Shown piece by piece: positions 52,367 through 54,817 of a stretch of 64,000 nt of DNA. A program made the position numbers and the translations under genes. The notes beneath the pieces are model-generated. The model searched no databases, was not told the DNA's origin, and was given only the letters and a program-made list of their open reading frames with translations. Positions within the stretch are counted from its first letter, which is position 1; each line of letters begins with the position of its first letter. The DNA is from Mizuhopecten yessoensis (lineage: Eukaryota). The DNA is taken from NCBI RefSeq assembly GCF_002113885.1, contig NW_018404348.1, positions 198,364 through 262,363 on the forward strand, given 5' to 3'.

Positions 52367-54538
52367 CTACATATCCTGGTTAAATTTCTGGTGTACTTTA
52401 TCACTTCCAAAGAAGGCTTCAAGTACTTTGACCACCACCAGTTTGGCTGAACTTGCAAAGTTCTCATGATTTTCAGACACAAACTTGACCATTGGCTCCA
52501 ACTCGAAGTCCACAAAGGTCAGAGTTTGGTGTTCAAACTTGTCCTTCGGTCCACTGGTGAAGCGTGCCTTAATATTTTCTGCACTCAGGCGATGCTGCTC
52601 AGCTATCCTCTCATCTTTCAGGTCGACAAAGCCACACATGCCCCACTCATGGAAGTCAAACTTAAGGTATATTGTTGTCAGGCAAATGGCATCTAAATCT
52701 TTCCCAGTCAACTCCAGACCTATTTCCTCCATTAATCCCCTCACAGCTGTGCTCAGTAGATTGACATGTGTATCACCTCCACTTTTAATATAGTCTGGTT
52801 TGGAAACACTCTCTACTGCCCCACATGTAAAATTTCCTGGGCTTGACATGCCCTTTCTTCTTGCTCTCTGGGGAAATACAAACTTCTGAGGCTTGTCTGG
52901 ACCCTCATTGGTCAGAATGGCAACATGGAGTCCAAATGAATTGCTGAAGTATGGATGGACATCCCCTTTGTAAGGGACTTCCGTATTTTTTTCTGTGGGA
53001 GAGAGTGACATCCAAATTTCTCGCATACTTCTATGATGGCAATAGTCAGACTCCTCAAAGAGCAGATCAATTGTTTGCTTTTCATCCTCTCCAGGTCTGG
53101 CTAACACCAAACCTTTCAGTGCAGTTGTAGGATTGTTATCTATCTCTCTCTTCTTAGCCATGTTTAGATATTTTTGAAGACAGTCCTGGTACAGAGCTAA
53201 CTCATCATCCTGTGCCCATTGGTCAGGTATGTCTCGATATGGGGCATTTCTGGTTTCTATCTTACATATCAAGTCTTTGTGGTCATAGCCTGTTGGCCTC
53301 TTTCTGGTACCAGATTCAAAGTAGCCTTGTTTTGCATCACCTTCTTCTATGCAGGAATCTGCCACAAATATGTCAGTTTTCTCCATGAATCCACAGGAGA
53401 AAAACTCCACCTGTGTAGGATCAATCTGGTATGGATTCTTATCCACGGAGAAATATTCTGTCAACAGATCTTTGGCGCTCTTTCTTGCTTCCGGATCAAG
53501 TTGCACACATGTTTCAATAACTGTTCGTAGAGTCCCTTCCAGGGATTTTGGTAATTCCACAGGGTCACTGTCTGGCTCACTGTCAGGTGTTGATGAAGAA
53601 AGTCGTGAAGAGGATATATTGGCCAAAGCTTTCTTTCCAGTGAGTGTATAAGCCATCACCAATCCAAATGAATACATGTCTCCTCGTTGGTAATCCTCAA
53701 TGAGGAATTCTTTCTCCTCATATCTGGCAAACTCTGGGGCTCCCCATCGAATATTTAAATAGTAAGAACTTCCACCTCGAAATCTTGATGATCCAGAAGG
53801 TCTGACATAGTCCATTTGCTTTGTGTCATTGTGGCTGTACCATGCCAGCCCGAAGTCTGCCACTTTCACCAAGATGCGGTTAGGCCCCACCTCTATGAGG
53901 ATGTTGTCCGGCTTCAGGTCCCGATGTACCACGTCCAGAGAGTGGAGGTAGGCTAAAGCACTAGATATCTGCTTACCGACACTCCACGTCTGGCTCTCAG
54001 TTAGACCATGTCTCTCATGTGTTTCCAGATCCTTAATGTACTGGAACAAGTTCTTGGACATGAACTCCATCACCAGGAACATGTGTTGGTCCCCATCTAA
54101 CACATTTCCATGTAGGTCCGGCAACAACTCTCTCATTTCATTCTCAGTCATATAACCCATGCCACGGTAAGCCACAATGTTGTCATGAGTTAGATAACGG
54201 AGCAGGTCAGATTCACGGAATTTAGTCTTAGCTTGTTCTTTAAGTGTTTTGACAGCCACCCTTGATCCATTCAATTTACACTCAAAGACCATTCCAAAAT
54301 GGCCCTCACCAAGGAATTTCCTCTCATTCAAGCTACTTGGCGCCACGCAGGCGATGGAGGAAGATTTCTTTGAAAGTTGAAGCAAATCTTTCACGTGGTC
54401 ATAGATCGTGTTAACAATGGATTTAACTTCCTTAACTGTTATGTCTAGTTTTTCGCTTATTCCCGAAAAACTTTTGAAAAGATTATCAATCGTTTGAAAG
54501 CATTCTTTCAGCTGTTCTGATCGTGTATCCGGATCCAT
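52367..54538 (-). CDS. Kinase-Nudix fusion protein B (723 aa from ATG 54538): helical N-terminus, TKL-like kinase, NUDT22-like Nudix domain; single coding exon
   Basis: GEGHFG, VAVK, HRDLKPDN, DFG, RWGAPE, DMYSFG and RGLMEEIGL. First ATG (MDPD) aligns with MDLL of paralogue A; the ORF-track start at 54547 is a TTG. Confidence 0.92.
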   Translation of the reverse strand: MDPDTRSEQLKECFQTIDNLFKSFSGISEKLDITVKEVKSIVNTIYDHVKDLLQLSKKSSSIACVAPSSLNERKFLGEGHFGMVFECKLNGSRVAVKTLKEQAKTKFRESDLLRYLTHDNIVAYRGMGYMTENEMRELLPDLHGNVLDGDQHMFLVMEFMSKNLFQYIKDLETHERHGLTESQTWSVGKQISSALAYLHSLDVVHRDLKPDNILIEVGPNRILVKVADFGLAWYSHNDTKQMDYVRPSGSSRFRGGSSYYLNIRWGAPEFARYEEKEFLIEDYQRGDMYSFGLVMAYTLTGKKALANISSSRLSSSTPDSEPDSDPVELPKSLEGTLRTVIETCVQLDPEARKSAKDLLTEYFSVDKNPYQIDPTQVEFFSCGFMEKTDIFVADSCIEEGDAKQGYFESGTRKRPTGYDHKDLICKIETRNAPYRDIPDQWAQDDELALYQDCLQKYLNMAKKREIDNNPTTALKGLVLARPGEDEKQTIDLLFEESDYCHHRSMREIWMSLSPTEKNTEVPYKGDVHPYFSNSFGLHVAILTNEGPDKPQKFVFPQRARRKGMSSPGNFTCGAVESVSKPDYIKSGGDTHVNLLSTAVRGLMEEIGLELTGKDLDAICLTTIYLKFDFHEWGMCGFVDLKDERIAEQHRLSAENIKARFTSGPKDKFEHQTLTFVDFELEPMVKFVSENHENFASSAKLVVVKVLEAFFGSDKVHQKFNQDM

Positions 54539-54716
54539 GATAATCAACTTTTAAACTTCCTGATCAAAATGAAAGTAGTATTCGGAACATCTCGGATATT
54601 TCGGAACGCGTCGGCCGATTATACCGTTGCACATGGTAGGCTGAGGTAACTGTTTTGACAGCTCCAGTACTAGTTCAGTCTCGGGTCAAGGTTATACACG
54701 ATATATAGTGGCTAGC
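54539..54716. promoter_or_regulatory. Head-to-head interval (178 bp) between kinase-Nudix B and GBE1; probable shared promoter/5'UTR region
   Basis: Divergent ATGs at 54538 and 54717; locally CpG-rich; ETS-like ACTTCCTG and repeated TTCGGAAC. Confidence 0.6.
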
Positions 54717-54817
54717 ATGGCCGGTGATGGACATGATGTGTGTGACGTTCCGGAGATAGAGAATCTGTTTGACATCGACCCTTACCTTAGAAATGTCGAA
54801 AAAGAAATCAGAAGAAG
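54717..54817 (+). CDS. GBE1: GBE1 exon 1 ([33 protein letters not shown])
   Basis: ATG 54717; AG|gtaaat donor. Confidence 0.9.

What the first reader, a model, noticed from the sequence alone, without database searches (positions are those of the whole stretch)
52367..54817. Kinase-Nudix B sits head-to-head with the glycogen branching enzyme: possible UDP-glucose/glycogen regulatory module
Seen in sequence: only 178 bp separate the divergent ATGs (54538 and 54717). Established: NUDT22 hydrolyses UDP-glucose to glucose-1-phosphate and UMP, UDP-glucose is the glycogen synthase donor, GBE1 branches glycogen, and glycogen is a major bivalve energy store. Inference: co-transcription could couple a kinase-controlled UDP-glucose sink to glycogen synthesis. 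The alternative is that an inserted intronless gene simply borrowed the GBE1 promoter.
Basis: partly seen in the sequence, partly recalled or inferred. Interest (0 to 1): 0.72.

Follow-up and report, generated by a model that had tools for sequence, protein, structure and literature searches.

The report
Invertebrate kinase-Nudix gene sharing GBE1 promoter
A scallop gene that joins a protein kinase to a domain predicted to fold like the sugar-nucleotide hydrolase NUDT22 is transcribed back-to-back with the glycogen branching enzyme gene, likely from one shared promoter, but the scallop's true NUDT22 lies elsewhere and this gene belongs to an unannotated family found from sponges to sea squirts, so it is more likely a nucleotide-sensing signalling kinase than a glycogen regulator.

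Summary
The geometry is real. The divergent ATGs are 178 bp apart and both genes are transcribed. RNA contigs leave only a 49-bp CpG-rich gap between their 5' ends, so a shared promoter is likely. Accession order keeps the genes neighbours in another scallop and two mussels; they lie on different contigs in 10 of 10 non-bivalve species.

The glycogen reading is weak. The C-terminal domain has the NUDT22 fold (Z 21.6) but only 15-16% identity and a different Nudix box. The genome holds a separate three-exon NUDT22 orthologue.

The gene belongs to a vertically inherited kinase + Nudix-fold family in sponges, cnidarians, molluscs, brachiopods and invertebrate deuterostomes. Its nearest relatives are bacterial-type modules placed behind interchangeable N-terminal parts: hydrophobic helix, TIR, caspase, HTH or kinase.

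Most likely the module binds a nucleoside-diphosphate-X ligand and controls the kinase, and the gene shares GBE1's promoter as a passenger. Ligand, activity and co-expression are untested. I found no description of the family in the papers searched.

The parts
52367..54538 (-). Kinase-Nudix B, single-exon coding region, 723 aa (P0001)
   Evidence: unspliced RNA contigs in 3 of 3 contig runs
54371..54523 (-). N-terminal pair of helices (aa 6-56), poorly conserved
   Evidence: AlphaFold model; identity by domain
53456..54325 (-). Protein kinase domain (aa 72-361) with Gly loop 77-82, K97, E109, HRDLKPDN 205-212, DFG 228-230, APE 267-269
   Evidence: Pfam PF00069 E 2e-39; motifs kept across 50 aligned family members
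52409..53407 (-). NUDT22-fold Nudix module (about aa 378-710)
   Evidence: model pLDDT 91.8; Foldseek E 1e-12, TM 0.58/0.68, 15% identity; VIA Z 21.6, rmsd 3.5, 273 aligned
52718..52822 (-). Variant Nudix box (aa 573-607): E576, D582, R600, E604, E605 kept; the Glu that follows the Arg is Gly601
   Evidence: Gly, Ala or Ser and never Glu in 76 of 76 rows
52070..52366 (-). 3' untranslated region of B; contigs run about 67 letters further, beyond the stretch laid
54539..54716 (.). 178-bp gap between the start codons, holding both 5' UTRs and the likely shared promoter
54570..54618 (.). 49-bp CpG-rich core covered by neither transcript's contigs: candidate bidirectional core promoter
   Evidence: contig ends; 7 CpG, o/e 2.45; promoter function inferred
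54717..54817 (+). GBE1 coding exon 1
56637..56806 (+). GBE1 exon 2
60799..60914 (+). GBE1 exon 3
   Evidence: loose read ends
62176..62292 (+). GBE1 exon 4
63280..63424 (+). GBE1 exon 5
63835..63925 (+). GBE1 exon 6; the gene continues beyond the window
41529..44330 (-). Paralogue kinase-Nudix A, 933 aa, tandem duplicate with a long insertion in the kinase N-lobe
   Evidence: A and B group together with support 1.0; Argopecten orthologue XP_069132316

Best explanation
B is a transcribed single-exon gene for a kinase joined to a domain predicted to have the NUDT22 fold; it likely shares a compact CpG promoter with GBE1 as a passenger, and its Nudix module likely binds a nucleoside-diphosphate-X ligand and thereby controls the kinase, rather than draining UDP-glucose for glycogen control. 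SHOWN: geometry, transcription, abutting 5' contig ends, intact kinase motifs, a family from sponges to tunicates, a separate true NUDT22. PREDICTED: the fold. INFERRED: (1) one promoter fires both ways; (2) the gene came to lie beside GBE1 within bivalves, and the shared promoter has since held the pair together; (3) the module is the constant ligand-binding part and the N-terminal domain the output, because non-animal relatives place the same module behind a hydrophobic helix, TIR, caspase, HTH or kinase. The ligand is unknown (a sugar nucleotide or an ADP-ribose-type molecule is the best guess), and slow hydrolysis is not excluded.
For: Promoter: 49-bp CpG-rich gap between contig ends. Head-to-head pairs are preferentially kept over long times (PMC3514665 section 7). 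Age: 68 family proteins across invertebrate phyla, 66 of 68 with a kinase domain (the length filter favours fused forms), and the module tree roughly follows the animal tree. Not linked to GBE1 in 10 of 10 non-bivalve species, and 1,364 locus tags away in Solemya. Not NUDT22: orthologue on C4421, three exons at E 9e-34, 2e-10 and 1e-8 to human NUDT22, -2.4 bits on the animal profile. Architecture: of 71 near-complete distant relatives, 24 have an N-terminal hydrophobic stretch, 4 a kinase, 3 TIR, 3 caspase, 1 HTH and 36 none recognised. Two caspases pass the EACC1-associated caspase cut-off, a conflict-system type (PMC7159879 passages). Atlas neighbours are bacterial clusters, some with TIR or HTH. 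Pocket-type residues R558, R600 and D666 are invariant in 76 of 76 rows while the catalytic-position Glu is never present. The module is better conserved than the kinase outside scallops (48-67% against 29-46%).
Against: No ligand, activity or promoter assay. A changed Nudix box does not mean inactivity: AtNUDX9 has a replaced box and hydrolyses GDP-mannose, and NUDT22 lacks a conventional box. E576, D582, E604, E605 and E669 are kept in 92-99% of rows, enough for metal binding. Half of the distant relatives (36 of 71) show no recognised partner domain. PADLOC gave no match to the module in 21 proteins. The two bacterial loci read show no defence operon: one lies among IS elements, one beside a toxin-antitoxin pair. 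The neighbourhood with GBE1 has lasted across scallops and mussels, and head-to-head genes tend statistically to share function (PMC1487180 section 9). The synteny evidence is accession order and contig length, not DNA, and gives no orientation or distance.
Confidence: 0.55

Rival explanations
1. First reader's module: B hydrolyses or senses UDP-glucose, and its co-transcription with GBE1 was selected to tune glycogen synthesis in scallops and mussels.
For: NUDT22 is the closest solved fold. Both characterised enzymes of this fold group act on sugar nucleotides. Likely shared promoter. Neighbourhood kept in Argopecten and two Mytilus species.
Against: Only 15-16% identity and a different box; separate NUDT22 orthologue. 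Unlinked in 10 of 10 non-bivalves although the module is 48-59% identical there. GBE1 itself does not use UDP-glucose (established knowledge). Approximate reads for B versus GBE1 exons 1-2 in five raw runs were 4:6, 11:1, 2:0, 4:17 and 0:0, a varying ratio but on too few reads and unknown tissues to count for much.
Confidence: 0.15
2. The module is an active housekeeping Nudix hydrolase with another substrate (GDP-sugar, ADP-ribose, NAD-type), and the kinase regulates or localises it; no sensing role, and the GBE1 neighbourhood is incidental.
For: Acidic metal-ligand residues kept. Strong conservation and one to a few copies per species. B's coding region is CpG-depleted (o/e 0.36), which in invertebrates usually marks broadly expressed genes (recalled).
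Against: Does not explain repeated fusion behind TIR, caspase, HTH and membrane-type helices, nor the loss of the catalytic-position Glu in 76 of 76 rows.
Confidence: 0.22
3. The genes are merely close: each has its own core promoter and they are regulated apart.
For: Read ratios vary between runs. An oyster locus has no GBE1 exon in the 301 bp before its ATG and shows a splice-acceptor-like end just upstream. In Mytilus coruscus the four known copies lie on other scaffolds than GBE1's first exon.
Against: At most 49 bp is left between the contig 5' ends in this scallop, too little for two insulated promoters.
Confidence: 0.08

Closest known systems
Human NUDT22 (UDP-glucose/galactose hydrolase; PDB 5LF9, 5LOR)
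   Same: Same extended Nudix fold over 273 residues (Z 21.6, rmsd 3.5); family profile match E 2e-7; a Tyr and the Arg before the Nudix box align.
   Different: 15-16% identity; box reads R-G-L-x-E-E here against Q-E-I-x-D-E in NUDT22; fused to a kinase; the scallop has its own NUDT22 on another contig.
Arabidopsis AtNUDX9 (GDP-mannose pyrophosphohydrolase)
   Same: Atlas structure match TM 0.66 to the 'Nudix hydrolase 9-like' cluster; also has a replaced Nudix box.
   Different: A standalone NUDT22-type enzyme; weaker match than the bacterial clusters (TM 0.72-0.77).
Uncharacterised bacterial Nudix-domain clusters (Actinomycetota, Chloroflexota, Pseudomonadota, Bacteroidota; some mislabelled 'translation initiation factor 2')
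   Same: Closest relatives: 20-32% identity over the module, same invariant residues, Atlas TM 0.77; plasmid copies in Pseudoalteromonas and Streptomyces.
   Different: Carry a hydrophobic helix, TIR, caspase or HTH instead of a kinase; function unknown.
CBASS Cap16 (TM-NUDIX effector) and EACC1-caspase conflict systems
   Same: Output domain plus Nudix layout; two relatives pass the EACC1-type caspase model.
   Different: No PADLOC match for the module; no cyclase among the annotated genes of the two loci read; the animal protein has a kinase.
ALPK1, the ADP-heptose-sensing kinase of vertebrates (recalled, no call)
   Same: Possible working analogy: a sugar-nucleotide-binding domain controlling a kinase.
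   Different: Unrelated domains (alpha-kinase, N-terminal helical sensor); analogy only.
Head-to-head gene pairs with bidirectional promoters
   Same: Divergent genes with 5' ends under 200 bp apart, CpG-rich gap, conserved neighbourhood.
   Different: Here limited to part of the bivalves; this pair was not found in print.

Membership tests
NUDT22 orthologues | NUDT22-type extended Nudix fold | tested here: met
   (predicted model, pLDDT 91.8)
NUDT22 orthologues | Orthology: best counterpart of NUDT22 in this genome | tested here: not met
   three-exon gene on C4421 matches human NUDT22 at E 9e-34, 2e-10, 1e-8; B alone gives no NUDT22 hit; that gene scores -2.4 bits on the family profile
NUDT22 orthologues | NUDT22-type box (Q-E-I-x-D-E) | tested here: not met
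   B has R-G-L-M-E-E
NUDT22 orthologues | UDP-glucose hydrolysis and its binding residues | not testable with these tools
   no assay; the structure paper is not held
Nudix superfamily | Nudix fold | tested here: met
   the top rows are Nudix-fold proteins
Nudix superfamily | Canonical box GX5EX7REUXEEXGU | tested here: not met
   Glu after Arg is Gly/Ala/Ser in 76 of 76 rows and the spacing is longer; Pfam NUDIX misses B and passes its cut-off in 3 of the 114 proteins scanned. Active Nudix enzymes with changed boxes exist.
Ser/Thr protein kinases | Gly loop, VAVK Lys, alpha-C Glu, HRDLKPxN, DFG, APE | tested here: met
Ser/Thr protein kinases | Phosphotransfer activity and substrate | not testable with these tools
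   no assay
Bidirectional head-to-head pair | Divergent transcripts with 5' ends under 1 kb apart | tested here: met
   contig ends at most 49 bp apart at their furthest reach; contigs do not show true start sites or strand
Bidirectional head-to-head pair | Correlated expression | tested here: inconclusive
   five raw runs with 0-17 reads per gene
Bidirectional head-to-head pair | One promoter element driving both genes | not testable with these tools
   needs CAGE, ATAC or a reporter
Retrocopy inserted beside GBE1 | Intronless copy of an intron-bearing parent with ancestral introns | tested here: inconclusive
   coding region has no intron in scallop, oyster loci and L020; coral-like and tunicate-like loci have introns at non-matching places; no other parent copy found in this genome
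CBASS Cap16 / PADLOC defence effectors | Match of the module to a defence-effector profile | tested here: not met
   0 of 21 proteins matched over the module; hits fell only on TIR, caspase or HTH parts
EACC1-caspase conflict system (bacterial relatives only) | EACC1-associated caspase domain | tested here: met
   P0164 and P0170 pass the NF047832 cut-off
EACC1-caspase conflict system (bacterial relatives only) | Upstream EACC1 gene | not tested
   no locus recovered

The most novel reading that the evidence does not exclude
Invertebrates from sponges to tunicates carry an overlooked sensor kinase: a Nudix module shared with bacterial conflict systems binds a sugar nucleotide or ADP-ribose-type danger signal and switches on the fused kinase, an invertebrate counterpart in logic to vertebrate ALPK1. 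In scallops and mussels it has been wired to the glycogen-branching promoter.
Probability: 0.2. Interest if true: 0.85.

Novelty: new variant of a known kind. Interest (0 to 1): 0.48.

Why it matters
The glycogen-module idea, taken as written, is unlikely, and close head-to-head pairs are ordinary. What deserves attention is the protein family. It is a kinase fused to a NUDT22-fold domain that Pfam, NCBIfam and PADLOC do not recognise, kept at about 50% identity or more from sponges to sea squirts, and mislabelled in databases after unrelated kinases. Its nearest relatives sit behind bacterial TIR, caspase and membrane-type domains. If the module is a ligand sensor, it defines a new nucleotide-signalling pathway in marine invertebrates and adds a module shared between bacterial and animal signalling. 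One purified domain and a nucleotide panel would test this. The compact two-way promoter is also a ready test case in a farmed bivalve.

Tried and rejected
Pfam, NCBIfam, PADLOC and single-sequence PDB searches gave nothing for the module. The Foldseek search with the whole model returned only kinases. Two scans of species genomes for bacterial loci found none and the phage search was empty, so bacterial gene context rests on two plasmid loci. Twenty-four metagenome loci held no GBE1 exon beside the gene, but they are short. The Pfam NUDIX search of the own genome returned 10 loci, none of them this gene; I did not identify them. The sigma-70 scan does not apply to an animal promoter; repeat and tRNA scans were uninformative. 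Accession distance was not taken as proof of separation: Pecten (432 apart) and Ylistrum (32 apart) share a contig with GBE1, and Pinctada's locus tags and the C. virginica series could not be read as order. The first tree run did not finish. A strict clade of kinase-fused modules was rejected in a quick test with too few replicates, but a clade that also holds two kinase-less relatives was not (p-AU 0.33), so the number of fusion events and any gene transfer from bacteria stay open. The NUDT22 outgroup aligned over only 122 columns, so the root is unreliable. The kinase-domain tree had weak deep support. Literature: five name variants of the fusion gave 0 papers, six gene identifiers 0, the family-description search one unrelated review, GBE1 plus bidirectional promoter one unrelated paper. 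Subscription journals are mostly not held and no supplements were searched; supplements of conflict-system papers may list the bacterial module. Earlier scan findings: nothing on this family.
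Full report
1. OBSERVATION. The minus-strand ORF 52367-54538 encodes 723 aa in one frame. A plus-strand ATG at 54717 opens GBE1, and the gap is exactly 178 bp. The exon-2 peptide is identical to a record named 1,4-alpha-glucan-branching enzyme of Mizuhopecten yessoensis on a contig of the same length as the window's, so the organism is that scallop. Six GBE1 exons in the window rebuild the first 246 aa of the annotated protein. A tandem paralogue A (41529-44330, 933 aa) is 51% identical over 612 aligned positions. 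The genome search found only A, B and a 150-aa piece 99% identical to A on a small contig.

2. TRANSCRIPTION. In three contig runs (one recorded as RNA, two guessed as RNA but showing the GBE1 splice and empty introns) B is one unspliced contig of 2,541-2,571 nt ending at 54548, 54569 or 54533. GBE1 contigs start at 54619, 54702 or 54652, and none bridges the two. These runs were chosen for holding the stretch, and contigs give neither true starts nor strand. The uncovered 49 bp (54570-54618) hold 7 CpG, o/e 2.45, against 0.35-0.42 in B's coding region and GBE1's introns. A single two-way core promoter is the simplest reading (inference). Raw reads are sparse: about 4:6, 11:1, 2:0, 4:17 and 0:0 reads for B versus GBE1 exons 1-2 in five runs of which 18-24% was read. 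The ratio varies, but tissues are unknown and counts tiny, so co-expression is untested.

3. THE PROTEIN. Residues 72-361 are a protein kinase with every catalytic motif present and kept across the family. Residues 371-723 hit nothing in Pfam, NCBIfam or PADLOC, and no Nudix protein in the PDB by single sequence. A 76-row profile finds NUDT22 at E 2e-7. The model of the domain (pLDDT 91.8) matches NUDT22 at Foldseek E 1e-12, TM 0.58/0.68, 15% identity and VIA Z 21.6, rmsd 3.5 over 273 residues, the next chain being Z 12.4. The Nudix box is a variant: R600, E604 and E605 are kept, but the Glu after the Arg is Gly, Ala or Ser in 76 of 76 rows; R558, R600 and D666 are invariant; R481, Y499, E576, D582 and E669 are kept in 93-99%. 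NUDT22 has Q-E-I-x-D-E at the same place.

4. IT IS NOT THE SCALLOP'S NUDT22. A search with a short recalled NUDT22 motif gave two places; one, on contig C4421, is a NUDT22 exon. Three exons there match human NUDT22 at E 9e-34, 2e-10 and 1e-8. Its first exon has no significant likeness to B. A profile from 54 animal family members scores it -2.4 bits, against 44-196 bits for 24 non-animal relatives, which had been found by likeness to B. UDP-glucose specificity cannot be carried over at 15% identity. The other characterised enzyme of this fold group, AtNUDX9, uses GDP-mannose (PMC4566977, passages and abstract start). NUDT22's reported role is pyrimidine salvage, with no mention of glycogen in the main text (PMC10101856, abstract and term search).

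5. THE FAMILY. Sixty-eight proteins match the module at E below 1e-30, 66 of them with a kinase domain. Named ones come from scallops, mussels, oysters, Pinctada, Solemya, abalone, a chiton, Lingula, amphioxus, a hemichordate, tunicates, corals, anemones, octocorals and a sponge. No named vertebrate, arthropod or nematode appears, which is not proof of loss. The module tree roughly follows the animal tree, and A and B are a scallop-lineage duplication. Outside scallops the module is 48-67% identical to B and the kinase 29-46%. The HMMER search of 1.84 billion proteins gave 183 hits, 150 listed. Of the 142 new ones, 71 are near-complete, under 40% identical and begin with Met: 24 start with a hydrophobic stretch, 4 carry a kinase, 3 TIR, 3 caspase, 1 HTH, and 36 nothing recognised. 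These records are unnamed; a bacterial origin for most is inferred from Atlas clusters that are 90-100% bacterial and from plasmid copies in Pseudoalteromonas and Streptomyces. Two caspases pass the EACC1-associated model, a conflict-system type with variable partner domains (PMC7159879, passages). A TM-NUDIX effector, Cap16, is known in CBASS (PMC10419184, one passage), and Nudix domains act on NAD and ADP-ribose derivatives in conflict systems (PMC9503650, passages). PADLOC did not match the module itself.

6. SYNTENY, by proxy only (contig length and accession order). In nine other bivalves the two genes share a contig in 8 of 9, and accessions lie within five of each other in 3 of 9. Argopecten has A, B and GBE1 as XP_069132316, 318 and 319, the same order as this window, which supports the proxy. 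M. trossulus has 047 and 049; M. galloprovincialis has GBE1 133 and family copies 137 and 138. Pecten, Ylistrum and C. virginica share a contig with no readable distance. Solemya shares a chromosome but is 1,364 locus tags away. Pinctada has one of two paralogues on GBE1's chromosome. In the fragmented M. coruscus assembly four copies lie on other scaffolds than GBE1's first exon. In 10 of 10 non-bivalves (four Haliotis, Liolophura, Lingula, three Branchiostoma, Glandiceps) the contigs differ; some are scaffold-level. An oyster locus has no GBE1 exon within 301 bp of the ATG. So the neighbourhood is older than this species but much younger than the fusion, and the tight geometry is shown only here. 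Coding introns are absent in scallop, oyster and one unnamed locus, and present at non-matching places in coral-like and tunicate-like loci, so retro-insertion is possible but not shown.

7. HOW IT MOST LIKELY WORKS. The constant element across kingdoms is the module with its Arg/acidic pocket; what varies is the domain in front of it. TIR, caspase, HTH, membrane helices and kinases are typical outputs, which suggests that the module binds a nucleoside-diphosphate-X molecule and controls the output (inference). Against this, half of the relatives have no recognised partner and the metal ligands remain. Enzymes with changed boxes can be active (PMC5688067, passages), so an active hydrolase remains a live rival (0.22). 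The GBE1 link is best read as promoter sharing. Head-to-head pairs are common, mostly 1-400 bp apart, and kept preferentially (PMC1487180 abstract and section 9; PMC3514665 abstract and section 7). The same sources report a statistical tendency to co-expression and shared function, so the glycogen reading keeps about 0.15.

8. NOVELTY AND VERDICT. The fusion was not found in the papers searched, nor the gene pair; subscription journals and supplements were not covered. The NUDT22 structure paper was not held. Observation confirmed; interpretation partly supported. This is a new variant of a known kind, an unannotated kinase + NUDT22-fold family, and not a NUDT22 orthologue. Interest 0.48, carried by the family rather than by the glycogen idea. 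The boldest open reading, an invertebrate sugar-nucleotide-sensing kinase akin in logic to ALPK1 (recalled), has probability about 0.2 and interest 0.85.

Noticed in passing
window 41529-44330: Paralogue A has a long insertion in the kinase N-lobe, also present in the 950-aa Argopecten orthologue, and a CpG o/e of 0.84 against 0.36 for B, suggesting different methylation and expression of the two copies. Its expression was not checked.
   Followed up: partly
G000:C4421, loci L040/L050 (about 23854-28156, minus strand): The scallop's true NUDT22, three exons matching human NUDT22.
   Followed up: yes
L049:1490-2356 and 8765-9223 (G000:C1021:168400-178399, minus strand): 5' exons of a p190 RhoGAP, the next gene found to the left of the kinase-Nudix pair.
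   Followed up: partly
G000:C79468 (L003): Small contig with a 150-aa piece 99% identical to paralogue A; probably an allelic haplotig.
   Followed up: partly
P0042 (Branchiostoma belcheri): Family member with an N-terminal Death domain; the kinase start looks missing, so it may be a chimeric gene model.
   Followed up: no
window 56070-56490: Repeat in GBE1 intron 1 that draws many partly matching RNA reads; looks like a SINE-type element (ARAGORN finds no tRNA).
   Followed up: no
window 54581-54614: Two spaced copies of a TTCGGAAC word in the candidate core promoter, resembling ETS-type sites (resemblance recalled, not tested).
   Followed up: no
window 31493-34884, 9170-11776, 37155-38237, 939-2105: ORFs that look like reverse transcriptase/endonuclease of LINE-type retrotransposons, several broken; judged by eye.
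   Followed up: no
window 6756-7917, 45170-46420, 51660-52060, 58500-59900: Tandem-repeat arrays, one just downstream of B's 3' end.
   Followed up: no
G000:C4580:204815-221512 (L006, L009, L010): Cluster of three Pfam NUDIX matches in long open frames within 17 kb.
   Followed up: no
Atlas rows 5-6: Bacteroidota clusters of 757 aa that join this module to TIR and hexapeptide-repeat domains.
   Followed up: no
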